Position numbers and translations under genes: made by a program. This document shows, one piece after another, positions 2,252 to 30,135 of a stretch of 32,000 bases of DNA. Below the pieces are notes generated by a model. The model was not told the origin of the DNA, made no database searches, and saw only the letters and a program-made list of their open reading frames with translations. The DNA is from an uncultured Clostridia bacterium (lineage in GTDB: Bacteria > Bacillota_I > Bacilli_A > RF39 > UBA660): positions 18,330 through 50,329 of the forward strand of contig CANRVH010000006.1 of NCBI GenBank assembly GCA_947643225.1. Reading direction: 5' to 3'. Position 1 is the stretch's first letter; the number at the start of each line of letters is the position of its first letter.

Positions 2252-3129
2252 TTATTTTGAAACCCTGATAACTGCTTTAGCTCCACAGAAATCGTTTACA
2301 ATAGTGGTGCATAAGCCACTATTTTTACAAGAACTCCAACTATCATCCCTATAAGTCGTCGAAGATGATAATGTCCATGAAGATTCATTATTCAAATATT
2401 TTGGACAGAAATCCCTTGTACAACCCAATGCTTTTGCTTCTTGTACAGTAATCATTCTAGCTTTTGCTGTTCTACTTGAGAGGATATATCCATCATCACA
2501 ATCTAAGTTCGTATCGCACAGTGTACCAATTCCTTTTTCAGATAATGATGTTGTTCCTAATGCATAAGTTTGATTATCAACATTAATCCGTTGCATTTTC
2601 CAAAACTGGTAATACTGTAAGTGGACCTTTAGTATTATCATTCTCAGTATACCACTCTGTATCATAAATTATATTTCCTTCTTTGTATTGTCATTGTATT
2701 TCCTTCATCAAACAACACATTAAATCCTATTATATCTGTACTATTTACCTTATATTTAATAATTGTTCCAGCAGGGCAACTATTTATAGTTTTATTTTTA
2801 TAACATATTGTTCTTTTACAGGTTTCTTCTTCTCCTGTTATACATTGATTACTTCCTATTTCACTATAGTTATACGCTACCATGAAATGACCTGTTTTTC
2901 TGATATCTACCTTATTATATAATTCATCAATCGCTTCTTAAACATTCGTTGAGAAAAGTCCTGAATTAGCATTAGAATAAGTAATATTACTACCCATAAT
3001 TGTAGTTACTGCATACACTCCTCCACTAGTTAAAATCACACCTAAAATCATGCCAAAAATAAATTTATAACTACCTTGAAATATGACTTTTTTTATTTTC
3101 TTCATTACACTTACTATCTCTATTTTCAT
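2252..3129 (-). pseudogene. decayed paralogue of the surface protein gene at 11181-12110, broken into three ORFs
   Basis: ORFs 2938-3129, 2662-2883 and 2252-2665 align in order to the 309-aa protein of 11181-12110: GGVYAVTTIMGSNITYSNANSGLFSTNV / (Q->stop) EAIDELYNKV / CITGEEETCKRTICYKNKTINSCPAGTIIKYKVNSTDI / SRTAKARMITVQEAKALGC. An in-frame TAA at 2938-2940 replaces the CAA (Gln) of the intact copy. At least one frameshift lies near 2590-2665, where KGPLTVLPVLENAT is readable only in another frame. Confidence 0.75.
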
Positions 3130-11180: not shown

Positions 11181-12110
11181 CTATTTTGTTACTTCAACAA
11201 CCGCCCGCGCACCATTCTCCATGTACACGAAGTCATTTCCTAACCTACCTACCATTATATACCAAGCGTAGTTCGAGTAAGTGGAATAAGCCGAAGACGA
11301 CCAATATACACTTGCTGAAGAATCATTCTCTGTTCCTCCATTATTTGTTGAATTATTTAAATAGTTATACATCCATATTGGACATGATTGACTACTATTA
11401 TTACATCCAAAACTTGCTGCCTCCTGTAATGTGATTAATCTTGCTTTTGCTGTTCTACTTCCTAATGTATAGGTATTTTTTGTACATGAATTATAAGCAC
11501 TACATCCTGTATTTGTTCCTAAGGTATAGATTTGATTATTAACGTTACTCCATCCTGATGTTGCATTCTCTAGTGATGTTAATACTGTTAATGGCCCTTT
11601 CTTGTTATTTCCAAATGTTCCGTATTCTGCGTTTGTTCCTCCTGCTGCTATATAATCTTCTTTACTTATCCATGATGTTTCATTAATTGTATTTCTTTGA
11701 CTCTGCATCGTTATTTTACTTCCATTATCTCTCATGACATGGAAATTTACTATATCTGTATCATTTACTCTATATCTAATAATTGTTCCTACTGGACAAC
11801 TATTTTCTGTTTTATTCTTATAACACATTGTTTTCTGACATGTTTCTTCCTTTCCTGTTACACAATAATTACTCGCTCCACTTGTTTGATTATATGTATA
11901 GGCTTCTACAAAATTTCCTATTCTTACTTTATTATATAGTTCATCAATCGCTCCTTGGACATTCGTTGAAGAAAGTCCTGAATTAACATTAGAATAAGTA
12001 ATATAACTACCCATAATTGTAGTTACTGCATGCACTCCACCACTTGCTAATATTAATCCTATTATAATTCCTAATAATACTTTAACGTTTTCTTTCCATA
12101 ATCTCTTCAT
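11181..12110 (-). CDS. Cys-rich secreted or membrane-anchored surface protein with a lectin-like C-terminal module
   Basis: 309 aa. N-terminal anchor LLGIIIGLILASGGVHA, a conserved SNVNSGLSSTNVQGAIDELYNKV box, several Cys pairs, and a C-terminal ...ARLITLQEA...YWSSS...AWYIMV...ENGARAVVEVTK pattern of the DUF1566/CLec-like type. A degraded paralogue lies at 2252-3129. Confidence 0.7.
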   Translation of the reverse strand: MKRLWKENVKVLLGIIIGLILASGGVHAVTTIMGSYITYSNVNSGLSSTNVQGAIDELYNKVRIGNFVEAYTYNQTSGASNYCVTGKEETCQKTMCYKNKTENSCPVGTIIRYRVNDTDIVNFHVMRDNGSKITMQSQRNTINETSWISKEDYIAAGGTNAEYGTFGNNKKGPLTVLTSLENATSGWSNVNNQIYTLGTNTGCSAYNSCTKNTYTLGSRTAKARLITLQEAASFGCNNSSQSCPIWMYNYLNNSTNNGGTENDSSASVYWSSSAYSTYSNYAWYIMVGRLGNDFVYMENGARAVVEVTK

Positions 12111-17451: not shown

Positions 17452-20121
17452 TTATGGAGTGAATGACTGTCCATTTACTGTGCAAGTAGGATTTCCCACT
17501 GTCCCAGGAGTTTTATTATTTCCTTTTTGATACCAACAGATGGCATTCGATTTATTACCTGCTAGATCTTCTGCATAATATGCTCTCCAATATTCTGATC
17601 CGCTTCCAAAGTATTTCAAATCACAAAGTGTACCACCTTCGAATCGCCAACCACTATTACACCATCCCTGTGAAGGACTATTTACCAAAGCATAAGCATA
17701 TGTAGTACCTAATCCTGAGGTTGCATCCCAATAAGAAAAGTAGAAACTTGTACCAATATTATGAGGTTGATAATTTGGTTGATGTCCAACTGCTGCAATT
17801 GGTGGAGTGGCATCTTTTTTAAATGAAGTACTTTGACATTTCCCTTCATTACCAGCTTCATCCTTAACATAACCATAAAAATTGGCACTTTTTGTATCAT
17901 TACTATAAGTCAATGATCTTTTATCATTATAGTTTTTTCTATTTGTAGTAGTTAGTCCCTTTTCAATTACTCCTCCTCCCTGATCATTAACACTTAATGT
18001 TCCTACAACGTTTTTTCTATACCAACCATTCTTTCCTTGTGGATTGTTATTAGCATTTAGACTAATACTACACGTTGGTTTTTTCGTATCATGTTTAACC
18101 GAAATATCACTCTTACTACAAGTTCTACAGTTTCCGACTGTATCACAAATTATTTGTCTTAGTGTACCACTTTTCTTAGTTACACTATTAGTTCCTTTAT
18201 ATGTTTTAACATTGTATGTATTTTTTTCACATTGACTTCCCTTATCTTTACATTTTAACTTTACAGTAACATTATTTTTTGTCCAATCATTATTTCCTAT
18301 CCACTGAACACATGTTGGTGCTTCACTATCTTGATAAATATTAATACCATCATATTTACAATCAACTGTATTTCCTGCATTATCTTGCATCTTTACTGAT
18401 ACTGTTGCTGTTTCTATAGTACCATTACTAGGCCTTTTATTTGTTAAAGTAGCTGTATAATTTGCATTTTTACATCCACTTGGTGCACTACAAGGTACAG
18501 TAATTTTCACTTGCTTATTTGTCCATGAAGTGTTTTCTCCTTTTAGCTTATTCCTTGGAGGACAAACTGGTCCTGATTTATCAACTTTAAATGGTTCGCT
18601 TTCACAGTATCCAATATTTCCTGCAGCATCTTTAACATAGCCATAATATTTTATTTCTTTTTGAGTGTTTGCATTATATACTACCTTGGTACTAGATCCA
18701 TAGGATTGAGAGTTTTTATTGGTATTCAAACTATATGTTAATCCATTACTATTCACTTGTCCTTTACTATCCTGCCCTGTTATGGTAGCCGTAACATCAC
18801 TCTTATAATAATCATTATTCCCTTTTGTGCCACTTAATTTGATTGTACATGTAGGATTTGTTTTATCTATTTGCACTTTTATTTTTGAGCATTCTGCATA
18901 ATTACCAGCTTGATCGTATACTCTTCCCGCTGATAATTCTGTATTGTATTCTTTATTAATTAAATTTCCAAAATTTTTTTGATTATTGCAACCACTTTCT
19001 TTGTCTTCACATATTGGCAATAGCATGATATTCTGATTTGTCCAATTGCTATTATAGTCTTTTTCATTTATAGATTCATCGTCACTTTTATATGTTCCTT
19101 TAGTTTGACATATTGGAGGAGTATTGTCTTGATAATATTTAATTCCTTTGGTTTCACAACTATTTCCATTTTGATCATACATTTTTACTTTTATTGTATA
19201 TTTTCCCGTTTGTTTTTCATTATAACTAATTGTTTTCTTGCCTAAAGCATTTCTAATTATTTGTTTATAACCGCTTCCATCCTGATCAATAAAGGCATCA
19301 TAGGTATACCCAGCACCTGTTACTTCTATATTGATATCGATTGCTCCATTTGTCCATGTTCCTTCTGATAATTTTTGACTTCCTTTTGTCGCTGTTATTT
19401 TTACTGATTTATCACAATTTAATGTATATTCTAAGGTATATGGTCCTCCTGATCCATGTCCTTTTTTTCCTATGGAATTATAAGCATATCCTTCAATATA
19501 AAATGTTCCTTTTTTATTTAATTTTATGGTAATTTTTTCTTTTTTATATTCTCTAAAATCAACTTTTTTGATCAAAATTTTTTTCTTATCTTTTGTTTCT
19601 TCATATACATTATAAGCATAACTTACTATTTCATTTTTTTTATCTGTTATCTTCATTTCTACTGTAATATCTTTATCTTTTACTTTTCCACTACTTGGAT
19701 TGAAAGTAATTTCTGGTGTCGATTGATTTTCTTTTTTTGTGTTATCTGTAGCACATTTTCCACAATCTAAGTACCCTGCATAATAATAGTTACTTCCTGT
19801 TACCTTAGTTGCACAAACCTTACTATTTGTTGGGTTACACAAAGCTCCTTGGTAATCTTTCATTTGTTCTATATATTTACTATTTGTTAATGTAGATAAA
19901 TCAACGCAAGTTTCTGCTCCTATTTCGAGTGGTAGTAATGTTGTTCGATCATGGAAATAATCTCTTCCAGCTACAATCATCATATCTACTTGTGATGCAC
20001 AATAATCTTCATGACTTTTATTTAATGATCCTCCTACCCCTGCTACTACTGTTCCTGATAATACTCCAATAATTGTAATTACTGCAATTACTTCTATTAA
20101 CGTGAATCCTTTTTTATTCAT
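17452..20121 (-). CDS. giant modular type IV pilin/pseudopilin-like protein: prepilin N-terminus plus tandem Cys-containing Ig-like modules
   Basis: The N-terminus MNKKG/FTLIEVIAVITIIGVL is a class III (prepilin peptidase) signal with Glu at +5. The body contains at least 7 repeats of a module ending D-x-A/N-G-N...C...D...P-x-C (YDQNGNSCE..DNTPPIC; YDQAGNYAEC..DKTNPTC; KDAAGNIGYCE..DKSGPVC; QDNAGNTVDC..DSEAPTC; CDTVGNCRTC..DTKKPTC; KDEAGNEGKCQ..DATPPIA; EDLAGNKSNAIC). GGTGA Shine-Dalgarno upstream. Confidence 0.75.
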   Translation of the reverse strand: MNKKGFTLIEVIAVITIIGVLSGTVVAGVGGSLNKSHEDYCASQVDMMIVAGRDYFHDRTTLLPLEIGAETCVDLSTLTNSKYIEQMKDYQGALCNPTNSKVCATKVTGSNYYYAGYLDCGKCATDNTKKENQSTPEITFNPSSGKVKDKDITVEMKITDKKNEIVSYAYNVYEETKDKKKILIKKVDFREYKKEKITIKLNKKGTFYIEGYAYNSIGKKGHGSGGPYTLEYTLNCDKSVKITATKGSQKLSEGTWTNGAIDINIEVTGAGYTYDAFIDQDGSGYKQIIRNALGKKTISYNEKQTGKYTIKVKMYDQNGNSCETKGIKYYQDNTPPICQTKGTYKSDDESINEKDYNSNWTNQNIMLLPICEDKESGCNNQKNFGNLINKEYNTELSAGRVYDQAGNYAECSKIKVQIDKTNPTCTIKLSGTKGNNDYYKSDVTATITGQDSKGQVNSNGLTYSLNTNKNSQSYGSSTKVVYNANTQKEIKYYGYVKDAAGNIGYCESEPFKVDKSGPVCPPRNKLKGENTSWTNKQVKITVPCSAPSGCKNANYTATLTNKRPSNGTIETATVSVKMQDNAGNTVDCKYDGINIYQDSEAPTCVQWIGNNDWTKNNVTVKLKCKDKGSQCEKNTYNVKTYKGTNSVTKKSGTLRQIICDTVGNCRTCSKSDISVKHDTKKPTCSISLNANNNPQGKNGWYRKNVVGTLSVNDQGGGVIEKGLTTTNRKNYNDKRSLTYSNDTKSANFYGYVKDEAGNEGKCQSTSFKKDATPPIAAVGHQPNYQPHNIGTSFYFSYWDATSGLGTTYAYALVNSPSQGWCNSGWRFEGGTLCDLKYFGSGSEYWRAYYAEDLAGNKSNAICWYQKGNNKTPGTVGNPTCTVNGQSFTP

Positions 20122-23372: not shown

Positions 23373-23648
23373 TTATTTTCCTTTTTTATTTTTTTCATCG
23401 GCAAATTTTTTCATAATTCCAGCTTTGCTAAATAAACTTCTAACTGTGTCTGTAGGTATTGCCCCTGTTCTTAACCATTTTAATGCTACTTCTTCATTAA
23501 TTTTTGTTTCTGTAGCATCACATGGATAATAATTTCCAATTAGTTCTAGATATTCTCCATCACGTCTAGCACGTGAATCTGTTGCAACAATTCTATAAAT
23601 TGGATGTCTTTTTGCACCCATTCTTGTTAATCTAATTTTAACTGCCAT
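23373..23648 (-). CDS. rpsP: 30S ribosomal protein S16
   Basis: [31 protein letters not shown]... is canonical S16. GGAGGAAAAAG Shine-Dalgarno upstream. Confidence 0.95.
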
Positions 23649-23737: not shown

Positions 23738-24970
23738 TTATCTTCTGCTCATATAATTCTCTTCCATATTTTGATTATGATATAAGTATAATTTCTGTAA
23801 ACTGTTTTGGTCAATATAAATTACTTTTCCCCCTGGAGGATTAATTTTTATATTGCCAAATACAATCCAAATAATATCTAACTTTTTCTTTGGCATATTT
23901 GATTTTCCATCGGTAAAAATAATTTTATTTTCCACCCTTCTAGTAAAAGAAGATACTGCAACGTTGAAATCCGTTCCCCCTCCACCGATAAAATTCATCT
24001 TATCTATATCTTTTTCGTTTCTTATTTCTGTAAACCCATAAAATTCATCGTCAAAACAACCAACTTTAATTTTTGAATTTGGCAATATATTTTTACATTC
24101 TCCTAAGAAATTTCTTAATAATGTTTTCGATATTGAACCACTAGTATCAAGAAGTATTTCAGTCTCAGGTGTTGGAAATTCTTCCAGATATGGATTTAAA
24201 ACCCCATTTTCTATTGAAGCATTTCGATAGGAAAAATCAATATTATATTGAGTGGTTTCCTTTAATAATCTTCTCCAATCAATTAATTGTTTTGACGTAA
24301 CTATATTTGTTATTCTTATTTGTTGTTTTTCTGCTCCATAGGATTTTCTTGCTAATTCTTCCATTAATTCATTTGCTTTTCTTTTTTTTTCGATCTTATT
24401 TTGTTTAAATGTATCTATTTCCCCCATTTCTGTTAATTTTTGAATTGTATCTTCTTTCCAGTTAGTAGATTGTGATTGATCCTTATTTAAAGTTTCTTCA
24501 CTTTGTTTATTTTTTCTTTCTACTACTTTATCCCATAGACTATGATCATCTTGCCCTTGTCTATTATTTTTTGGTTGTTCTATTTCTTTATTTAATAATT
24601 TTTCATACATTTCTTCTGCTGTATAATTAATTGCTATGGGAATATCAATAACTCCTTTTATTAATTTTAATCCATCATTTTTTAAAAGGGCATTAATTAC
24701 TGAGTCTGTTGCAATATTCCAAAGCTCTTGATTTTTTCCTTCACTTCTTAAAATATGATTAAACGCAATATGGCAAATTTCATGTACAAAGGTAAAAACT
24801 TGTTCCTCATCGTCTAATTTGCTTAGAAAATTTTTATTATAATATATGTTGTCTCCATCTGTACTTGCCGTTTTGGTATTGTTATCTTCTATTATGTTAG
24901 TTGAGGCTACTATGCTTCCAAAAAGGGGATATTTAATTAATAATTTTCTTTTTATTGTTTCAATATTCAT
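23738..24970 (-). CDS. putative zinc metallopeptidase-vWA protein (DUF2201/COG3864 type, MoxR partner)
   Basis: The N-terminal domain carries HExxH (FVHEICHIAFNH) and ATDSVIN. The C-terminal domain has the vWA MIDAS motif DxSxS (LLDTSGSIS) and GGGGTDF. The ATG lies 1 nt after the stop of the preceding small ORF. Confidence 0.8.
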   Translation of the reverse strand: MNIETIKRKLLIKYPLFGSIVASTNIIEDNNTKTASTDGDNIYYNKNFLSKLDDEEQVFTFVHEICHIAFNHILRSEGKNQELWNIATDSVINALLKNDGLKLIKGVIDIPIAINYTAEEMYEKLLNKEIEQPKNNRQGQDDHSLWDKVVERKNKQSEETLNKDQSQSTNWKEDTIQKLTEMGEIDTFKQNKIEKKRKANELMEELARKSYGAEKQQIRITNIVTSKQLIDWRRLLKETTQYNIDFSYRNASIENGVLNPYLEEFPTPETEILLDTSGSISKTLLRNFLGECKNILPNSKIKVGCFDDEFYGFTEIRNEKDIDKMNFIGGGGTDFNVAVSSFTRRVENKIIFTDGKSNMPKKKLDIIWIVFGNIKINPPGGKVIYIDQNSLQKLYLYHNQNMEENYMSRR

Positions 24971-24971
24971 G

Positions 24972-25382
24972 CTATTTTCTTTCTATATGAGCAACTAGCG
25001 AATATATTTCTTCAGTAATGTTTTTTTCCTTTAAATTAGAGCATGTTACAATAATTATACAATTTTCTGGTAAGTGAAATGTACTTATTTTTTTATATTT
25101 TAAGATTTCAATAAATTTTTTTTGTTCTGTTTCATCGATTTTATTTATATCTTTAATTACTAAGATTGGTATTCGATTTTTACTTTTTTGTTGTAATTCT
25201 TCGTACCACTTGGGAGCCTTAAAGTCTATTCCTTCATAATGACCATTAAGATACGAATCATCGCAATCTGAAGATATTACTACCTCATCTTTTATTAATT
25301 CAGTTGGAGTATTTTCAAGTAATATGGGAGAGACGTTTATCTTTATATATTCATTTAATATTTCTAATTGTTCTTTTATCAT
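24972..25382 (-). CDS. small hypothetical protein, translationally coupled between the AAA+ gene and the vWA gene
   Basis: I prefer the ATG at 25380-25382 (MIKEQLEILNEY...), which forms an ATGA overlap with the TGA stop of the upstream gene. AAGGAGG lies 9 nt upstream. The longer ORF-track start at 25463 would overlap the AAA+ gene by 85 nt. No family recognised. Confidence 0.6.
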   Translation of the reverse strand: MIKEQLEILNEYIKINVSPILLENTPTELIKDEVVISSDCDDSYLNGHYEGIDFKAPKWYEELQQKSKNRIPILVIKDINKIDETEQKKFIEILKYKKISTFHLPENCIIIVTCSNLKEKNITEEIYSLVAHIERK

Positions 25383-27412
25383 ACTCTCATTCCTCCTTGT
25401 TGTTTTTCTTCCATAATCAGTTCTGCTAATTTTTCTAATCTTTCTTCGTCTTGGTGAGCCCAAATACTTTCAAAAGTAGCACAAGGTTCTGCACCTAGTT
25501 TCTTTACAAAACTTCTAACTACTATTAAATTTTGGTCATCAACAGAGGATAATCCAACTGCAGTGGCGAATTTTTCTGCTATATTCATTCTTCTTATTTC
25601 TTCTTCACTATATTCTCCATTTAGCACATCTTCTATTGTAATTACCTTTTGTTTTACAAAGGCAACAAAATCTCTTGTTAATTCTTCACCAATCAAGGCT
25701 CTTAACATTTCTGGTTTTTTTGTTTGATATAAAACTTTAGAAGCCATTTCCCACTTTCTTGGATCAGCATTGGGTTTTTCTCCGTTAAAAGGAGTTCTTA
25801 ACACGTCTTCTCCTGTGTAAGATCTATATGCAATGTAAGCATAAATCGATGGGTGAATTGTTAACATCACTTCTGGAGTAGTATATTTTAATCTTTCATA
25901 TTGACCTTTTGGTGTTGTAGCCCATTTTAACCAATTATCTACTGTTGTATTAATATAAACATGAGCAAATCGATTAAATAGGGGCTCTGCCATTGTGTTT
26001 GCTGCTAAACTATCATTTAGGTCATTTCCTGCTGCAACTATTCTTGCGTTTTCTGGTAATTTCCAAATACCATTTACTTCTTTATCTAAAACAATATTAA
26101 ATGCCATTCCTTGAATTGATGGGAGTGCATTAGTTATTTCGTCAAAAAAGACAATATGAATTTTATCAGGTTCTTCTTCACATTTTTTCTGTACTTTTTG
26201 TAACCAAGTAGGTGGAATATCTAACATATGACCAGGTTTTACTTCAACACTTTCATAAGTATATTCTATAACTTCTTTTTTTGTTTGGGTTTCCTGGTCT
26301 ATTTCTAATTTTATGTGTGGTACTTTTCTTTGTTCATATATTGGTTGTACATAAACACTTTTACCATTTAAACTATCTGGAGTAGCATTTCTTAGATAAA
26401 TGATTTCACAATCTGGGTCATATTGTTTTACTCTAGCACTTTTTCCTTCACTGCTTCTTCCATGCAAAAGAACTGGAATATCACTTACTAGTGCTCCTCT
26501 TATAATTTCTTCTTCTGATACAAAATTAAAGTTAAATTGATAAGGATTTTGTTTTCTTTTTATTAACCTTTGTTCTTCTAAAGTAATTTCTTCTTTGGTT
26601 TGAGAATAGGTTAATCCTTCTTCAATTTCTTTTGCAAAAGGACCATTCATAAATTGATGCATATCTGTTTTTGAAAAGTCGCCTTTATAATCCCTTTTAT
26701 TTTTAAATTGCACTCCTGAAAATAATAATTTTTTCGAAATTGCTATATCTTTTTTTTCATCTATTATCCATTTTATTGGTTCTACTTTAATCCAAATAAC
26801 ATCATTTTCTTTTATTATCTTATTATTAGATAGTTTCTTTGATACACAATTTTTATCTGCTATTATACGAATATATTTTTTTCCATTATATTGATATTCT
26901 AAATGTTCTCTTTTTTGAAATGTTTTATCATATGCATCAATCTCTCTTGAATCTGTTGTGTAACTTTTTCCTGTCAATTCTAAACTGTTTTCTCTATATT
27001 TTCTTTCTAATTGTTCTGCTATAACATCATGTTCAACTGTTTGTGGGTATTCCCCGTATTCTATCTCTAACTCTCTTTTTTTCCCTCTCACTCCGTTCGA
27101 GGAGAAGGAAGAGATTGATGAGAACGTTAAAGCTGGGCGAGCACCTCCAAAACGGCTTAGAACAATGCTGCTATCACTACCACCATTCCAGCCCACAACG
27201 CGGGCGTCATTATCACCATCATCAGTTTTTGTCCACCAATATCCTGTACGATCCTTTAAATCGTTACTGTCTTCCAAATAACAGTCTGAGACATATGCTC
27301 CTAATACAATTGCAAAGTCAGTAAGAGCAGCACGTGTACCTATTTTTTTAAATATTTCTAATTGATTTTGACCAAAGATTTGATCCTCGGCTAAAAACGT
27401 AAAGTTATTCAT
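25379..27412 (-). CDS. DGR target protein: N-terminal variable lectin-like module fused to a MoxR-type AAA+ ATPase
   Basis: The N-terminus has GYWWTKTDDGDNDARVVGWNGGSDSSIVLSRFGGARPAL (the YWW...G.RPAL module of Firmicute lectin-like domains), and this stretch contains the VR. The central and C-terminal parts carry Walker A LLHGRSSEGKSA, Walker B IHIVFFDEITNA, then LPSIQGMAFNIVLDKEV, RIVAAGND and EPLFNRFAHV, which fit the MoxR/AAA_5 pattern. No signal peptide or TM helix seen. The ATG at 27410-27412 has AGGTGA 5 nt upstream. The ORF track uses the GTG at 27421. Confidence 0.8.
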   Translation of the reverse strand: MNNFTFLAEDQIFGQNQLEIFKKIGTRAALTDFAIVLGAYVSDCYLEDSNDLKDRTGYWWTKTDDGDNDARVVGWNGGSDSSIVLSRFGGARPALTFSSISSFSSNGVRGKKRELEIEYGEYPQTVEHDVIAEQLERKYRENSLELTGKSYTTDSREIDAYDKTFQKREHLEYQYNGKKYIRIIADKNCVSKKLSNNKIIKENDVIWIKVEPIKWIIDEKKDIAISKKLLFSGVQFKNKRDYKGDFSKTDMHQFMNGPFAKEIEEGLTYSQTKEEITLEEQRLIKRKQNPYQFNFNFVSEEEIIRGALVSDIPVLLHGRSSEGKSARVKQYDPDCEIIYLRNATPDSLNGKSVYVQPIYEQRKVPHIKLEIDQETQTKKEVIEYTYESVEVKPGHMLDIPPTWLQKVQKKCEEEPDKIHIVFFDEITNALPSIQGMAFNIVLDKEVNGIWKLPENARIVAAGNDLNDSLAANTMAEPLFNRFAHVYINTTVDNWLKWATTPKGQYERLKYTTPEVMLTIHPSIYAYIAYRSYTGEDVLRTPFNGEKPNADPRKWEMASKVLYQTKKPEMLRALIGEELTRDFVAFVKQKVITIEDVLNGEYSEEEIRRMNIAEKFATAVGLSSVDDQNLIVVRSFVKKLGAEPCATFESIWAHQDEERLEKLAELIMEEKQQGGMRV
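27133..27206 (-). repeat. DGR variable repeat (VR), inside the target gene (ORF-track codons 72-97)
   Basis: 62/74 identical to 28742-28815. There are 12 mismatches, 11 of them where the TR has A on the minus strand. See finding 1. Confidence 0.88.
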
Positions 27413-27465
27413 ATTTGTCACCTGTAATTATTATATCATAAAATGGAATATTATGGAAAATAAAA

Positions 27466-28491
27466 TTAATTTTTTGTGGGATTCGTCCAATTCTTTAGCT
27501 TTCTACTTTCCTTAGTATTTTTTATGTGATGATAAAAAGCATTTTTTCTAATATAGATATATTCATCATCTATAATGTTCATCTTTTTTAATTTAGATAA
27601 ATTTTTCAAGTGTTGATATAGTCTTCTTTTAGAAGATGATCTAAGTTTTTTTATTATCTTTCCACTTTTCAATAAAATATGACGATATCCTAAAAAATCA
27701 ATACCATTTTCGACTTTTCCTATTTGAGTTTTATTATTTAATGATAAATGCAATTTATTTTGACATATATTCCCTATTTCTTTTTGGCATACTTGTAAAA
27801 ATTTTTTATCTCTATGAATTAAAATCATATCATCCATATATCTAATATATCCTTTTACTCTTAATTTTTCTTTAATATATCTATCTACTAAATTCAAATA
27901 TAATAACGCAAACCATTGACTAGACTGATTTCCTAATGGTAAACCTATTTTACAGTGATTAGGTTGTTCTTTTATTATTTTTTCTATAAACCATGTCTCT
28001 TCTTCAGAAAATTCAATTTTTTTCAATAATTGAAGTAAGATGTTATGATCTATACTAGAAAAATATTTACTAATATCACACTTTAGAAAATATATTTCAT
28101 TGTTTTTTTGTTTATTATATTCTATTCTTAAAAATTTTTCTAATCTTTTTATTGCAAAATCAGTTCCTTTTTCTTTTCTACAAGCAGCATTATCGTAAAT
28201 TAACTTTTTTTCTATTTTTGGTTTTAAGGACACTTCACAGAAACATCTTATGATTACACGATCTTTATAAGGCAATGCTTCGATTATTCTTTTTTTTGGT
28301 TCATATATAGAAAACACTTTATATTTGTTAAATTTGTATTTTTTCGTTATGATTTCTTTTCTTATATTATGTAAATTGTATGATAAATTTGTTTCAAATC
28401 TAATTACTTCTCCTTTTTGTTGCTTTGATTTTCGACAATTTTTATGTGCTTCATATAAATTTTCAAAAGTGAAAATTTCTGATAATTTCAT
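27466..28491 (-). CDS. DGR-type reverse transcriptase
   Basis: 341 aa with the RT motifs IYEPKKRIIEALPYKDRVI, FLKCDISKYFSSIDH, GLPLGNQSSQWFALLYLN (the [ILV]GxxxSQ motif that separates DGR RTs from retron and group II RTs), RYMDDMILI (YMDD) and FLGYR. AGGGAG Shine-Dalgarno. The TR lies 250 nt upstream on the same strand. Confidence 0.88.
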   Translation of the reverse strand: MKLSEIFTFENLYEAHKNCRKSKQQKGEVIRFETNLSYNLHNIRKEIITKKYKFNKYKVFSIYEPKKRIIEALPYKDRVIIRCFCEVSLKPKIEKKLIYDNAACRKEKGTDFAIKRLEKFLRIEYNKQKNNEIYFLKCDISKYFSSIDHNILLQLLKKIEFSEEETWFIEKIIKEQPNHCKIGLPLGNQSSQWFALLYLNLVDRYIKEKLRVKGYIRYMDDMILIHRDKKFLQVCQKEIGNICQNKLHLSLNNKTQIGKVENGIDFLGYRHILLKSGKIIKKLRSSSKRRLYQHLKNLSKLKKMNIIDDEYIYIRKNAFYHHIKNTKESRKLKNWTNPTKN

Positions 28492-28893
28492 TATATTCTC
28501 CCTAAATTATAAGTTTTTATTGATTTATTTCATCATAAGAAAAGACACCTCTTATAACCTTCAAAGTTTTTTAACGTTGAAAAGTGTAAGTGTCTATATT
28601 TTTCCATCGCACTAATTTCTTTTAGCGATTAGAAAAGAGAAAGGTTCCTTCACTTTATCGTATAGATATGTTTTTCTTAAAACATATTTTTCTAACGCGT
28701 TTTTTAGATTCACATTTAGTAAAATCTCTTCAAAAGTGAATCTGGGCGAGCACCTCCAGAACGGTTTTGAACATTGTTGTTATTACTATTACCATTCTAG
28801 TTCACAACGCGGGCGAACGAGGAGAGGGGCTCAACACAAACAGGCCTAAAAATTAACCTTTTCCCTTAATTAAAAGCCTTTCAGCTTAAAATC
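28492..28893 (-). ncRNA. DGR RNA region: non-coding leader, TR, and a 250-nt structured spacer between TR and RT
   Basis: No credible minus-strand ORF between the avd stop (28894) and the RT start (28491). Contains the TR plus inverted repeats at 28706-28713/28736-28743 and 28666-28674/28679-28687. The true RNA ends are unknown. Confidence 0.55.
28742..28815 (-). repeat. DGR template repeat (TR)
   Basis: Minus-strand sequence CGCCCGCGTTGTG AAC TAG AAT GGT AAT AGT AAT AAC AAC AAT GTT CAA AAC CGT TCT GGAGGTGCTCGCCCAG. It is AAY-rich, has a stop in the VR frame, is intergenic, and sits between the avd-like gene and the RT. Confidence 0.88.
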
Positions 28894-29478
28894 CTAATTT
28901 CTTTTTTTAAATCTTTCATCATCACTTTTTTTCCAAGCTGTTGTTAGATTTATTGCTTCTGCTATTTGTTTGGCAATCTGTTTATATTGTTTTTTTAATA
29001 TACATCCTGAACTTTCTGCTACCATGGAAATATATCCTAGTAATTTTAGTTTTATAATTGCTTCTTTTTGATATTCTTCCCTTTTTTGTTTATGCTCTAT
29101 GCTATCTACTCTAATGAAATTGGCTTGTAATAAGTCTTCTAATATTTCTAAACAGTAGTTTTGCATTCTGTTAACAAAAACTCCTCTAAACTTTTTGGGA
29201 GATTTTTCTGTTATTGTGATCATATAAGCTCCTAATTTTTTCACTACGGTTATTACAATTAGTTCGCTTGAATTAAAAGGGATTTTTGATATTATTTCCA
29301 ATTCTTGATCTTCTTCTTTTGCTAATTCTTTTAATTTGGATATATTTATTTTTTTATGATTAGCTATTGCTATCGATTTTTTTACTTCAATTTTATCTTC
29401 AATGTTATTAATTGTATTTTCAAATTGTTCTATTTTTTTTGGAATTTTTAAATTATGATCTCTACTAACTTGAATCAT
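28894..29478 (-). CDS. avd: Avd-like accessory variability determinant (four-helix-bundle family) with an N-terminal extension
   Basis: The C-terminal ~130 aa (SPKKFRGVFVNRMQNYCLEILEDLLQANF...REEYQKEAIIKLKLLGYISMVAESSGCILKKQYKQIAKQIAEAINLTTAWKKS, basic tail) fits the Avd / 23S-rRNA-IVS four-helix-bundle pattern, including the terminal x-x-x-W-x-K motif. Located immediately upstream of the TR. At 194 aa it is longer than typical Avd. Confidence 0.65.
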   Translation of the reverse strand: MIQVSRDHNLKIPKKIEQFENTINNIEDKIEVKKSIAIANHKKINISKLKELAKEEDQELEIISKIPFNSSELIVITVVKKLGAYMITITEKSPKKFRGVFVNRMQNYCLEILEDLLQANFIRVDSIEHKQKREEYQKEAIIKLKLLGYISMVAESSGCILKKQYKQIAKQIAEAINLTTAWKKSDDERFKKRN

Positions 29479-29532
29479 TTAGCACCTTCTAACTAATCAT
29501 ACTTTTTGGAGAAAATATTTCTCTCTTTGTTT

Positions 29533-29561
29533 ATTCTAGTATAGACAAGTTTTTTCGTCAA
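29533..29561 (-). promoter_or_regulatory. candidate sigmaA-type promoter of the avd-TR-RT-target operon
   Basis: The minus strand reads TTGACG (29561-29556), a 17-nt spacer, then TAGAAT (29538-29533), about 55 nt upstream of the avd ATG (Shine-Dalgarno GAAGGTG). Confidence 0.5.
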
Positions 29562-29607
29562 GAATTATTTTCAGCTGAGTTAAATTACTTCTTTCATATA
29601 AAAAGAA

Positions 29608-30135
29608 TTATATAGTTTTATCTTCTTCTATATAATTCTCTTTTACTTCCTCTTCAATTTTATCTCCTACATCATCTAATATCTCGTCCCAAGGATCTTC
29701 CTCTTCACTTGTTTCTATTTTTACTTTTTCGTCGCCAACAAGCTCAATTCCTAATTCTTTTTCTATTGTATAAACAATATCATTTCCTTCGATATCCACT
29801 TTTATACAACTTGGTTGTTTTAGACTTCTAACAATAATTTCTTCATTTACAACATCTCTATTATTTTTAATTGTTACTATCTCGTTGTAATTATCTGTTT
29901 GCTTAATCACATCAGTTTTTGTATCATTATCATATGAATACCAAATATTAACATCATAATTTCCAGTAATATTTACTTTTTCACCGACTTTTTGTCCTTG
30001 AAAGTTATGATTGATTACCCAGCAACCAAGAATTGTTGATGGAGTATTTTCTACAGTTTTTTTATTTGTAGTAGTAAAAGTTTTTTTGCCTTTACCAATG
30101 ACCGTTTTCGTTACAATTTCACGATAATTTGCCAC
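29608..30135 (-). CDS. cotE: outer spore coat morphogenetic protein CotE
   Basis: MANYREIVTKTVIGKGKK...STILGCWVINHNF...NITGNYDVNIWYSYDNDTKTDV... with an acidic C-terminal tail closely parallels Bacillus CotE (YREIITKAVV..SSILGGWIINH..YDINVWYSY). It lies next to ymcA and miaB, as in Bacillus. Confidence 0.82.
   Translation of the reverse strand: MANYREIVTKTVIGKGKKTFTTTNKKTVENTPSTILGCWVINHNFQGQKVGEKVNITGNYDVNIWYSYDNDTKTDVIKQTDNYNEIVTIKNNRDVVNEEIIVRSLKQPSCIKVDIEGNDIVYTIEKELGIELVGDEKVKIETSEEEDPWDEILDDVGDKIEEEVKENYIEEDKTI

What the first reader, a model, noticed from the sequence alone, without database searches (positions are those of the whole stretch)
27133..28815. TR/VR pair with adenine-specific substitutions: a DGR, not a retron
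The 74-nt intergenic segment 28742-28815 is repeated inside the downstream gene at 27133-27206, with 62/74 identical. Eleven of the 12 mismatches fall where the upstream copy has A on the minus (RT-coding) strand: plus-strand T at 28765, 28768, 28774, 28777, 28780, 28784, 28789, 28790, 28798, 28801 and 28802. So 11 of 22 template adenines differ, against 1 of 52 non-adenine positions (28759). In the frame of the coding copy the template reads AAC TAG AAT GGT AAT AGT AAT AAC AAC AAT GTT CAA AAC, which is AAY-rich and contains a stop. The coding copy reads GGC TGG AAT GGT GGT AGT GAT AGC AGC ATT GTT CTA AGC (G W N G G S D S S I V L S). Both ends of the repeat are invariant and GC-rich in an AT-rich genome: CGCCCGCGTTGTG at the 5' end and GGAGGTGCTCGCCCAG at the 3' end, the latter IMH-like. 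Homology stops abruptly after the 3' element. Together with an RT carrying LGNQSSQ and an Avd-like gene, this is the signature of mutagenic retrohoming.
Basis: seen in the sequence. Interest (0 to 1): 0.9.

Follow-up and report, generated by a model that had tools for sequence, protein, structure and literature searches.

The report
DGR diversifying a cytoplasmic AAA+ ATPase
This is a genuine diversity-generating retroelement in a gut Firmicute chromosome, unusual because it rewrites a small binding domain at the front of a cytoplasmic MoxR-like ATPase and because its template carries a stop codon that can switch the gene off.

Summary
TR 28742-28815 and VR 27133-27206 (minus strand) are 62/74 identical, and 11 of 12 mismatches sit at template adenines (Fisher p = 1.7e-6).

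The interpretation, a DGR and not a retron, is supported.
- The RT (LGNQSSQ, YMDD) matches Bordetella phage bRT far better than any other solved RT.
- The upstream gene is a divergent Avd.
- The avd-RT spacer is a covariation-supported RNA. Its helices mirror the template:primer and cPRT-Stop duplexes of the BPP-1 DGR RNA.
- Eleven orthologous cassettes show the same adenine-only spectrum: 149/321 A sites changed against 9/639 non-A sites.
- Two metagenomic copies of one ortholog differ at 14 nt, all inside the VR.

What is unusual is the target. The VR lies at residues 70-95 of a DUF6273-like N-terminal domain fused to a MoxR-like AAA+ ATPase. This gene sits in a conserved operon with a degenerate AAA+ fragment and a DUF2201 metallopeptidase/VWA protein. 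All are predicted cytoplasmic, and the context is chromosomal.

Most TRs of the family encode in-frame stop codons (TAG here), and a third of assembled VRs are null.

Verdict: a new variant of a known kind, of moderate interest. The target's function is unknown.

The parts
29533..29561 (-). Promoter-like site (TTGACG-17-TAGAAT) upstream of avd. Suggestive only.
   Evidence: Consensus matches occur at near-chance frequency in this AT-rich region (42 found, 35 expected).
28894..29478 (-). Avd-like accessory gene (194 aa). The four-helix-bundle-type C-terminal part spans about aa 75-185, preceded by a conserved N-terminal extension of about 65 aa.
   Evidence: NCBIfam NF033474 DivGenRetAVD E = 2e-7 (31 bits, cut-off 80), covering profile positions 3-103 of 104. 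Pfam bAvd E = 2e-3. All 12 orthologs hit NF033474. A profile search found no PDB sequence hit.
28868..28893 (-). 5' stem-loop of the DGR RNA (helices H1/H2, GAAA tetraloop), immediately after the avd stop codon.
   Evidence: 100% of cells paired; 2 pairs with compensatory change.
28855..28866 (-). Upstream strand of long-range duplex H3, which pairs with 28636-28646 and brackets the TR. Analogue of the avd:Sp 'cPRT Stop' duplex of BPP-1.
   Evidence: 11 pairs, 98.5% paired, 3 pairs with compensatory change. In the window the helix needs a one-nucleotide bulge (my reading of the sequence). BPP-1 reference.
28742..28815 (-). Template repeat (TR): 74 nt, 22 adenines, with an in-frame TAG at 28797-28799.
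28742..28757 (-). GC-rich 3' element of the TR (GGAGGTGCTCGCCCAG), identical in the VR (27133-27148). IMH-like.
   Evidence: Conserved as GGTGG(N)GCTCGCCCAG in the relatives.
28733..28741 (-). A28741 is the predicted first template nucleotide. TTCACTTT (28740-28733) is the template strand of helix H4.
   Evidence: H4 pairs with 28649-28656. It has 8 pairs, 100% paired in 12 sequences (6 invariant, 2 vary on one side only). The start-site assignment is an inference by analogy with TR G117 of BPP-1.
28543..28732 (-). Structured spacer (Sp-like) RNA. H5 is 28723-28727/28706-28710. H6 is 28679-28687/28666-28674. The H4 3' strand AAAGTGAA is 28649-28656, with the predicted priming A at 28649, followed by a GG linker at 28647-28648. 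The H3 3' strand is 28636-28646. H7 is 28625-28635/28601-28610, followed by an A-rich run. H8/H9 is 28543-28595, followed by a U-run.
   Evidence: Alignment A3. 70 pairs, 97.6% paired, 21 pairs with compensatory change, 0 of 500 shuffles reach this, and slid controls pair at 44-58%. Window coordinates. No Rfam family matches. Single-sequence z-score is -3.0.
27466..28491 (-). DGR reverse transcriptase (341 aa), with LGNQSSQ at aa 186-192 and YMDD at aa 218-221.
   Evidence: Pfam RVT_1 E = 6e-16. bRT 8ub7_A E = 3e-35. Closest phage RT is that of DGR phage nd12, 41.5% identity. Motifs.
25379..27412 (-). Target gene (677 aa). N-terminal DUF6273-like domain (about aa 1-110), beta-rich middle region (about 115-260), then a MoxR/AAA_5-like ATPase (Walker A GRSSEGKS at 318, Walker B IVFFDE at 420, sensor 1 IVAAGN at 458) and a helical C-terminal part.
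27133..27206 (-). Variable repeat (VR), encoding residues 70-95 of the target.
24972..25382 (-). Small ORF (136 aa). Its ATG overlaps the target's stop codon (ATGA). It is a degenerate AAA+ fragment covering Walker B to sensor 1, with no Walker A.
   Evidence: BLASTP against target residues 401-485, E = 3e-4. Syntenic in most relatives.
23738..24970 (-). DUF2201_N (HExxH, HEICH at aa 63) plus DUF2201 VWA-like domain (MIDAS-type DTSGS at aa 275).
   Evidence: Pfam E = 5e-29 and 4e-14. Motifs. Syntenic in about 70 loci.

Best explanation
The segment 23738-29561 (minus strand) is a chromosomal diversity-generating retroelement joined to the operon it diversifies.

**Proposed mechanism**
1. A transcript starts upstream of avd. 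It contains the TR flanked by a 5' stem-loop and a structured spacer of about 200 nt.
2. The spacer folds back on both sides of the TR. AAAGTGAA (28656-28649) pairs with TTCACTTT directly 3' of the TR. Two nucleotides further on, AACCUUUCUCU (28646-28636) pairs with AGGGAAAAGGU(U) upstream of the TR.
3. By analogy with the BPP-1 bRT-Avd ribonucleoprotein, the RT-Avd complex primes cDNA synthesis from the spacer adenosine at 28649. It begins copying at A28741/G28742, misincorporates opposite template adenines, and stops at the upstream duplex.
4. The cDNA replaces the VR (27133-27206), guided by the shared GC-rich ends.

**Consequence**
This recodes up to 12 codons (about 21 adenines in first or second codon positions) in residues 70-95 of a DUF6273-like, C-type-lectin-like domain. 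That domain sits at the N-terminus of a cytoplasmic MoxR-like AAA+ ATPase. The ATPase is co-translated with a degenerate AAA+ fragment and a metallopeptidase/VWA (DUF2201) partner.

**Shown**
- The TR/VR spectrum.
- The affiliations of the RT and Avd.
- RNA covariation.
- The same spectrum in 11 orthologs.
- VR-confined polymorphism between two copies of one ortholog.

**Inferred**
- The priming and start nucleotides.
- Current activity of this particular copy.
- The biological role of the target. My best guess is a diversifiable ligand sensor that gates an ATPase/VWA module, probably in a conflict or defence setting.
- That the TAG in the TR makes roughly half of homing events produce a null allele.
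For: - **Spectrum in the window:** 11 of 12 mismatches at TR adenines, p = 1.7e-6.
- **Spectrum in the family:** 149/321 A sites changed against 9/639 non-A sites, p = 4e-71, with A>G/C/T of 50/45/43 in the relatives.
- **Activity in an ortholog:** L079 and L080 come from different samples. Their 1935-nt target genes differ at 14 positions, all within nt 219-257 of the gene, and 13 of them at TR-A sites.
- **Protein alignments:** the family is near-invariant except for the patch ARVVxxxGxxxWxxVxxRxGG.
- **RT:** bRT is the best PDB hit at 125 bits; the next best is 39.5 bits. LGNQSSQ and YMDD are present. The nearest phage RT is that of published DGR phage nd12.
- **Avd:** DivGenRetAVD is hit by 12 of 12 orthologs.
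- **RNA:** 70 pairs, 97.6% paired, 21 compensatory pairs, 0 of 500 shuffles reach this. The topology (template:primer-like helix, 2-nt linker, TR-bracketing duplex, stem-loop, A-rich run) matches the BPP-1 description and the pattern reported for 207 DGRs, including Bacillota.
- **Target domains:** DUF6273 is hit by 16 of 34 family members and AAA_5 by 23 of 34. Foldseek matches dynein, MCM, NorQ and phage AAA_5 ATPases. tblastn matches phage and plasmid genes annotated as MoxR ATPases.
- **Localisation:** no hydrophobic segment in any of the five proteins.
Against: - No close relative of this exact element exists in the collections searched. Diversification of this copy itself is therefore not shown.
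- One non-adenine mismatch (C>T at 28759) shows at least one ordinary mutation since the last homing event.
- The window's substitutions are skewed to A>G, 9 of 11 (p = 0.003 against the relatives).
- Avd scores lie below curated cut-offs, and a profile search found no PDB sequence match.
- The window's own N-terminal domain does not reach DUF6273 in Pfam. Its fold could not be confirmed: the domain-only model has pLDDT 48 and the full-length model pLDDT 66.
- No convincing hairpin or cruciform lies just downstream of the VR.
- The window's single-sequence MFE prefers a local hairpin that competes with H4.
- The target's function is unknown, and there are no PADLOC hits.
Confidence: 0.88

Rival explanations
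1. A DGR relic. The cassette was once active and left the TR/VR signature, but it no longer performs retrohoming in this genome.
For: There is one non-adenine TR/VR mismatch (28759). No population data exist for this lineage. In the wider family, most species carry the target operon without an adjacent DGR, so loss or absence is common. Inactivated DGRs with intact TR/VR pairs are documented (PMC3521204).
Against: The RT and Avd ORFs are intact with their catalytic motifs. All nine RNA helices are preserved in the window sequence. 51 of 52 non-A positions are identical between a non-coding and a coding copy, whereas orthologs differ by about 35%. The VR has converted the template TAG to TGG, so the allele is functional. 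An ortholog shows recent VR turnover.
Confidence: 0.1
2. A retron, a group II intron or a defence-type RT (DRT/Abi), with the repeat being incidental.
For: NCBIfam gives sub-threshold hits to group II RT/maturase (85 bits, cut-off 300), Drt3a and retron St85. PADLOC lists many DRT models. One phage homologue is annotated 'retron-type'.
Against: All those hits lie far below their cut-offs and below the bRT match. Rfam finds no group II intron or any other RNA family in 26900-29600. The RT has no maturase or endonuclease domains and is only 341 aa. None of these systems predicts an adenine-specific TR/VR pair, an Avd, or the conserved TR-bracketing RNA.
Confidence: 0.01
3. An ordinary duplicated segment, or gene conversion between a coding sequence and an intergenic copy, with the mismatch pattern arising by chance.
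For: None beyond the existence of a repeat.
Against: Fisher p = 1.7e-6 in the window and 4e-71 across the family. The same arrangement recurs in 11 orthologous cassettes.
Confidence: 0.005

Closest known systems
Bordetella phage BPP-1 DGR (mtd-avd-TR-brt), the prototype
   Same: - An RT of the same clade (E = 3e-35 to bRT) with the I/LGxxxSQ and YMDD motifs.
- An Avd-type accessory protein.
- Adenine-specific TR-to-VR transfer.
- A GC-rich shared 3' element.
- An RNA with a template:primer-like helix, a 2-nt linker and a duplex joining sequences upstream and downstream of the TR.
   Different: - Gene order is avd-TR-RT-target, with the VR downstream of the RT.
- The VR lies near the N-terminus of the target, not the C-terminus.
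- The target is a cytoplasmic AAA+ ATPase, not a phage tail-fibre protein.
- The Avd carries an extra N-terminal segment of about 65 aa.
- The TR contains an in-frame stop codon.
- The element is chromosomal, not on a phage.
- No obvious hairpin lies next to the IMH.
DGRs of gut phages nd4/nd12 ('tentaclins', PMC10743442)
   Same: - The nd12 RT is the closest phage RT (41.5% identity).
- The target gene lies directly downstream of the RT.
- The variable domain is DUF6273. [quoted passage not shown]
   Different: There the DUF6273 domain is followed by Ig-like domains and acts as a phage receptor-binding protein. Here it is fused to a MoxR-like ATPase in a cellular operon. Direct sequence similarity between the two variable domains is only at motif level.
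DGR-associated MoxR-vWA 'VMAP ternary' conflict systems of cyanobacteria and gammaproteobacteria (PMC7159879, PMC10907252)
   Same: A DGR-diversified lectin-type domain is coupled to a MoxR-like AAA+ ATPase and a vWA protein. The components are predicted cytoplasmic. The variable protein is proposed to act as a sensor.
   Different: - In those systems the variable CLec/FGS domain is C-terminal and fused to the vWA protein or to STAND NTPases. The MoxR ATPase is a separate gene and a VMAP protein is present.
- Here the variable domain is N-terminal and fused to the ATPase itself.
- The vWA partner is DUF2201 with a metallopeptidase-like domain.
- The third gene is a degenerate AAA+ fragment.
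- No recognisable effector is present (TIR, caspase, trypsin).
- The hosts are unicellular, spore-forming gut Bacillota.
MoxR/AAA_5-VWA pairs such as NorQ-NorD, and CobS-like phage ATPases
   Same: Fold-level similarity of the ATPase to NorQ in the NorQD complex (9qhg_E, probability 0.94) and to phage AAA_5/CobS-like ATPases. The ATPase is genetically paired with a VWA-domain protein that has a MIDAS motif.
   Different: Those ATPases have no variable lectin-like domain and no DGR. Their clients are specific metalloenzymes. Sequence identity is only about 25%.

Membership tests
Diversity-generating retroelement (DGR) | TR/VR repeat pair whose differences are confined to template adenines | tested here: met
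   11 of 12 mismatches at TR adenines, p = 1.7e-6. Family-wide, 149/321 A sites against 9/639 non-A sites.
Diversity-generating retroelement (DGR) | RT of the DGR clade, with I/LGxxxSQ in motif 4 and YxDD | tested here: met
   LGNQSSQ at 186 and YMDD at 218. bRT is the best PDB match at 125 bits; the next best is 39.5 bits. The nearest phage RTs are DGR RTs. No formal phylogeny was built.
Diversity-generating retroelement (DGR) | Accessory variability determinant (Avd or HRDC) adjacent to the TR/RT | tested here: met
   NF033474 DivGenRetAVD covers the profile end to end in 12 of 12 orthologs (E down to 4e-8), but below the 80-bit cut-off. Pfam bAvd E = 2e-3. The match is divergent and the protein has an N-terminal extension.
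Diversity-generating retroelement (DGR) | Invariant GC-rich 3' element (IMH) shared by VR and TR, with divergence beyond it (IMH against IMH*) | tested here: met
   GGAGGTGCTCGCCCAG is identical in both copies. Beyond it, the TR reads ATTCACTTT and the VR reads CTTTAACGT. The same arrangement is conserved in relatives.
Diversity-generating retroelement (DGR) | Hairpin or cruciform just downstream of the VR | tested here: inconclusive
   Only an imperfect hairpin about 45 nt downstream, in a peptide-constrained stretch (SSNGVRG). The region's z-score is -0.25.
Diversity-generating retroelement (DGR) | DGR RNA in which spacer sequences pair with the 3' end of the TR and with sequence upstream of the TR | tested here: met
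   Helix H4 (8 bp, no compensatory changes) and helix H3 (11 bp, 3 compensatory pairs) are separated by a 2-nt linker. For the whole structure, 0 of 500 shuffles reach the observed values. Compared.
Diversity-generating retroelement (DGR) | VR inside a C-type-lectin-fold ligand-binding domain, usually C-terminal | tested here: inconclusive
   The family hits DUF6273 (16 of 34 members, best E = 1.5e-5), which PMC10743442 reports as CLec-like. The window protein itself gives no Pfam hit. The AF2 models are too weak to confirm the fold. The position is N-terminal, not C-terminal.
Diversity-generating retroelement (DGR) | Ongoing diversification: VR polymorphism at A-templated sites within a population | not testable with these tools
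   No near-identical copy of this element was found in any collection. It is shown only for an ortholog whose target protein is about 65% identical (L079 against L080: 14 of 14 differences inside the VR).
VMAP-type MoxR-vWA ternary conflict system | A separate MoxR ATPase, a vWA protein and a VMAP protein with an effector or adaptor domain | tested here: not met
   An ATPase and a VWA-like protein are present. The third gene is a degenerate AAA+ fragment. No effector or adaptor domain was found by Pfam, NCBIfam or PADLOC. No VMAP model was available, so that part is untested.
Retron | Retron-clade RT with an adjacent msr/msd RNA | tested here: not met
   Retron RT models score 48 bits against a cut-off of 235. 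PDB chains deposited as retron-type RT score 33 and 30 bits against 125 for bRT. No Rfam retron RNA was found.
Group II intron | Intron RNA domains plus an RT with maturase and DNA-binding/endonuclease domains | tested here: not met
   TIGR04416 scores 85 bits against a cut-off of 300. No group II Rfam match. The RT is 341 aa with no extra domains.

The most novel reading that the evidence does not exclude
The DUF6273-AAA+/DUF2201 operon is an intracellular sensing or defence module of gut Bacillota, and a phage-type DGR keeps its recognition domain hypervariable. That would make it an anticipatory, antibody-like receptor fused directly to its ATPase motor. The stop codons conserved in the template repeat would be a built-in ON/OFF switch that lets lineages silence a costly or self-reactive variant at each homing event.
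Probability: 0.22. Interest if true: 0.8.

Novelty: new variant of a known kind. Interest (0 to 1): 0.5.

Why it matters
DGRs are the only known natural machines for targeted protein hypermutation in prokaryotes. Most characterised targets are surface or phage-tail proteins with a C-terminal variable lectin domain.

Here the variable domain sits at the front of a cytoplasmic MoxR-like ATPase. That ATPase belongs to a three-gene operon found in dozens of uncultured gut Bacillota species. This extends the recently proposed idea of DGR-diversified intracellular sensors beyond multicellular cyanobacteria and proteobacteria into the gut microbiome.

The family offers a compact system for asking what a hypervariable cytoplasmic binder is for: one ATPase, one VWA partner and one DGR. 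The target operon, though not necessarily the DGR, also occurs in cultured strains such as Zhenpiania hominis BX12.

The recurrent stop codons in the templates, and the frequent null VR alleles, run against the accepted design rule that DGR templates avoid stops. They suggest that hypermutation and phase variation may be coupled. The covariation-supported RNA gives an independent, non-proteobacterial test case for the bRT-Avd priming model.

Tried and rejected
- **Finding this element elsewhere.** An exact look-up of the RT found nothing. Scans of genome contigs and metagenome contigs with the two invariant repeat ends also found nothing.
- **N-terminal domain alone.** It gave no Pfam hit even at E = 10. 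A word-indexed homology search with it returned only 18 mostly truncated proteins.
- **Structure prediction.** AlphaFold of the N-terminal 124 aa gave pLDDT 48, which is unusable.
- **Avd.** An Avd family profile against PDB sequences found no bAvd match.
- **Defence databases.** PADLOC gave nothing for the target, the small ORF, DUF2201 or Avd.
- **Rfam.** Only two chance-level hits.
- **Hairpin downstream of the VR.** Not significant.
- **My own errors.** The first count of RNA pairs used a structure string shifted by 4 columns (48% paired). It was wrong, was redone correctly, and incidentally served as a negative control. The first regex scan for VR equivalents was too strict and found nothing; it was redone.
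- **Alternative genetic code.** I considered this as an explanation for the stops in the TRs and VRs and rejected it. TAA and TAG are not reassigned in the known bacterial codes (my knowledge), and long ORFs are intact under table 11.
- **Retron, group II intron and chance repeat.** All rejected (see rival explanations).

Full report
**1. The observation**

Read on the minus strand, 28815..28742 and 27206..27133 align without gaps at 62 of 74 positions. Eleven of the 12 mismatches are at positions where the upstream copy has A: nine A>G and two A>T. The twelfth is C>T at 28759. That is 11 of 22 adenines against 1 of 52 other bases (Fisher p = 1.7e-6).

The repeat is unique in the window. A pattern made only of the two invariant ends finds exactly these two sites, and none in shuffles.

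The upstream copy is intergenic. The downstream copy encodes residues 70-95 of the protein that starts at ATG 27412.

**2. The cassette**

The genes on the minus strand run in this order.

| Element | Coordinates |
|---|---|
| cotE | 29608-30135 |
| Avd-like gene | 28894-29478 |
| TR | 28742-28815 |
| RT | 27466-28491 |
| Target gene | 25379-27412 |
| Small ORF | 24972-25382 |
| DUF2201_N/DUF2201 gene | 23738-24970 |
| rpsP | 23373-23648 |

- **RT.** It has LGNQSSQ and YMDD. Its best match among all solved structures is chain 8ub7_A (125 bits, E = 3e-35). Residues D138, D215 and D216 of that chain coincide with the catalytic residues reported for Bordetella phage bRT. The next best chains are 8bgj_A, an RNA-directed DNA polymerase (39.5 bits), a group II maturase RT (35 bits) and chains deposited as retron-type RT (33 and 30 bits). 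Among annotated phage genomes the closest RT is that of phage nd12 (41.5% identity), a published DGR phage. Bordetella, Faecalibacterium and Bacteroides phages are also among the hits.
- **Avd.** The Avd-like protein matches NCBIfam DivGenRetAVD end to end (E = 2e-7), as do all 12 orthologs. The scores are below the curated cut-off, and the protein has a conserved extra N-terminal segment of about 65 residues.
- **Context.** The surroundings are ordinary Firmicute chromosome: MiaB, YlbF-like, CotE, S16, CdsA, RseP, PriA, a PASTA kinase and RlmN. It is not a prophage.

**3. Relatives**

The target protein has more than 2,500 homologues at up to 67% identity. They are near-invariant along 640-680 residues except for the patch ARVVxxxGxxxWxxVxxRxGG, which corresponds to the VR.

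In one genome per species (GTDB), 78 loci encode it. Nearly all come from uncultured gut Bacilli and Clostridia, plus Zhenpiania hominis BX12 and Coprobacillus sp. CAG:605. The triad of target, small ORF and DUF2201 is syntenic almost everywhere. An Avd-RT cassette lies directly upstream in only about 14 loci. More distant members have a VR-equivalent stretch without GC-rich flanks and without a TR. I infer that a DGR was recruited onto a pre-existing operon in one sublineage.

In 11 orthologous cassettes a homologous TR/VR pair is present. Pooled with the window and L079 (13 pairs in all), 149 of 321 template adenines differ from the VR, against 9 of 639 other positions (p = 4e-71). The relatives show an even A>G/C/T spectrum of 50/45/43.

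Two contigs from different samples (L079, L080) carry the same 1935-nt target gene. They differ at 14 nucleotides, all between nt 219 and 257 of the gene, which is inside the VR. Thirteen of them are at TR-A sites. It is passed by an ortholog. It could not be run on the window's own lineage, which is absent from every collection searched.

**4. The RNA**

The 370-400 nt between avd and the RT are conserved at nucleotide level across elements whose proteins are only about 65% identical.

The RNAalifold consensus, after removing helices internal to the TR, has 70 pairs in nine helices. 97.6% of cells are paired and 21 pairs show compensatory changes. None of 500 shuffles reaches the observed percentage paired, compensatory-pair count or covariation score. 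Slid controls pair at 44-58%.

In window coordinates, the elements are as follows.
- A 5' GAAA-capped stem-loop at 28893-28868.
- Duplex H3 joins 28866-28855, upstream of the TR, to 28646-28636.
- Helix H4 joins TTCACTTT (28740-28733), directly 3' of the TR, to AAAGTGAA (28656-28649). It is paired in all 12 sequences but shows no compensatory changes.
- Only GG (28648-28647) lies between the H4 and H3 strands on the spacer side.
- Two hairpins (H5, H6) lie inside H4.
- A stem-loop (H7) followed by an A-rich run comes after H3.
- A long terminal hairpin (H8/H9) plus a U-run precedes the RT ribosome-binding site.

This is the topology described for the BPP-1 ribonucleoprotein: a TR:Sp template:primer duplex, two linker nucleotides, an avd:Sp 'cPRT Stop' duplex, then a stem-loop and adenosines. 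The same paper predicts it for 207 other DGRs, including Bacillota (bioRxiv 10.1101/2023.10.23.563531).

By analogy, I infer that priming occurs from A28649 and copying starts at A28741/G28742. That would explain why TR/VR identity ends at CCCAG. These nucleotide assignments are inference, not data.

No Rfam family covers this RNA. In the window alone, the MFE prefers a local hairpin (AGAUUCAC/GUGAAUCU) that competes with H4. This may be an alternative conformer or may mean nothing.

**5. The target**

- **N-terminal domain.** About 110 residues belong to a family in which 16 of 34 members hit Pfam DUF6273 (PF19789; best E = 1.5e-5) and two hit Fib_succ_major. The window sequence itself does not reach threshold. 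DUF6273 is a published DGR target domain of gut phages. [quoted passage not shown] My models were too weak to confirm the fold. The full-length model does place two short strands (70-73 and 79-82) within the VR.
- **ATPase.** Residues about 300-640 form an AAA+ ATPase with Walker A, Walker B and sensor 1. It is AAA_5-like in 23 of 34 members. It is similar in fold to dynein, MCM, NorQ and phage AAA_5/CobS-like ATPases. It is about 25% identical to phage and plasmid genes annotated as MoxR ATPases.
- **Small ORF.** Its start overlaps the target's stop codon. It is a degenerate copy of the Walker B to sensor 1 segment.
- **Last gene.** It has an HExxH metallopeptidase-like domain and a VWA-like domain with a DxSxS motif.
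- **Localisation.** None of the proteins has a hydrophobic segment.

DGR-diversified lectin domains linked to MoxR and vWA proteins have been described as putative conflict-system sensors in cyanobacteria and gammaproteobacteria (PMC7159879, PMC10907252). There the variable domain is C-terminal on the vWA or STAND protein, and VMAP and effector domains are present.

In the library I could search, I found no description of a DUF6273-AAA+ fusion, nor of DUF2201 together with a retroelement. Large DGR catalogues may nevertheless already contain these loci.

**6. An unexpected feature**

The window's TR has an in-frame TAG, and the VR has TGG there. Nine of the 11 distinct TRs in the family carry TAA, TAG or TGA at recurrent codon positions: the second variable codon and the Trp codon, or, in the L012/L065 template, two codons after the Trp position. 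Four of 12 VRs from other assembled contigs (L005, L007, L008, L012) still have a stop there.

Truncated ORFs ending inside the VR are present in the protein database.

The accepted view is that DGR templates use AAY codons precisely to avoid stops (PMC12875486). With about 46% of adenines changed per VR, roughly half of the homing events from the window's TR would leave a stop codon.

Whether this is tolerated sloppiness or a selected ON/OFF switch is open. Consensus chimeras in metagenome assemblies are a caveat.

**7. Verdict**

As a retroelement it meets the tested defining features. It is a variant in four respects: gene order, the position of the VR, the nature of the target, and the stop codons in its template. 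The function of the target operon remains inferred. Interest is moderate.

Noticed in passing
window 28797-28799 (TR, minus strand); L005, L007, L008, L012 VRs; P0142, P0144, P0145, P0147-P0149, P0151: Most TRs of this DGR family encode in-frame stop codons at recurrent variable positions. A third of assembled VRs still carry a stop, and truncated ORFs ending inside the VR are in the protein database. This runs against the usual rule that DGR templates avoid stops.
   Followed up: partly
window 27133-27206 against 28742-28815: The window's A-substitutions are 9 A>G out of 11, whereas the relatives show an even G/C/T spectrum (binomial p = 0.003). L008 and L011 are similarly G-rich.
   Followed up: partly
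window 24972-25382 (-): The small ORF between the ATPase and the DUF2201 gene is a degenerate AAA+ fragment, homologous to the Walker B to sensor 1 part of the target (E = 3e-4). It lacks a Walker A motif and is conserved in synteny.
   Followed up: partly
L001-L078: The AAA+/small ORF/DUF2201 operon occurs in about 78 species, but only about 14 have the DGR next to it. L003 has a VR with DGR-type GC-rich flanks and no RT within 6 kb upstream, so the DGR may act in trans or have been lost.
   Followed up: partly
L080 1-1100: In one metagenomic ortholog the same cassette lies next to Mob_Pre (plasmid mobilisation) and HTH genes. This hints that the module can sit on a mobile element.
   Followed up: no
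window 28710-28742 (-): In the window (and in L005), the 3' flank of the TR can form a local hairpin, AGAUUCAC/GUGAAUCU, that competes with the conserved template:primer-like helix.
   Followed up: no
window 2419-3067 against 11402-12084: There is a degenerate second copy (76-82% nt identity) of the 309-aa gene at 11181-12110, which has no Pfam family. Only a 137-aa ORF remains at the second site, so it is probably a pseudogene.
   Followed up: no
window 17452-20121 (-): An 889-aa ORF carries an N-terminal prepilin-type methylation motif (PF07963) and has no other recognised domain.
   Followed up: no
P0001, P0002 (909-914 aa homologues): [quoted passage not shown] They may therefore have two VRs.
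   Followed up: no
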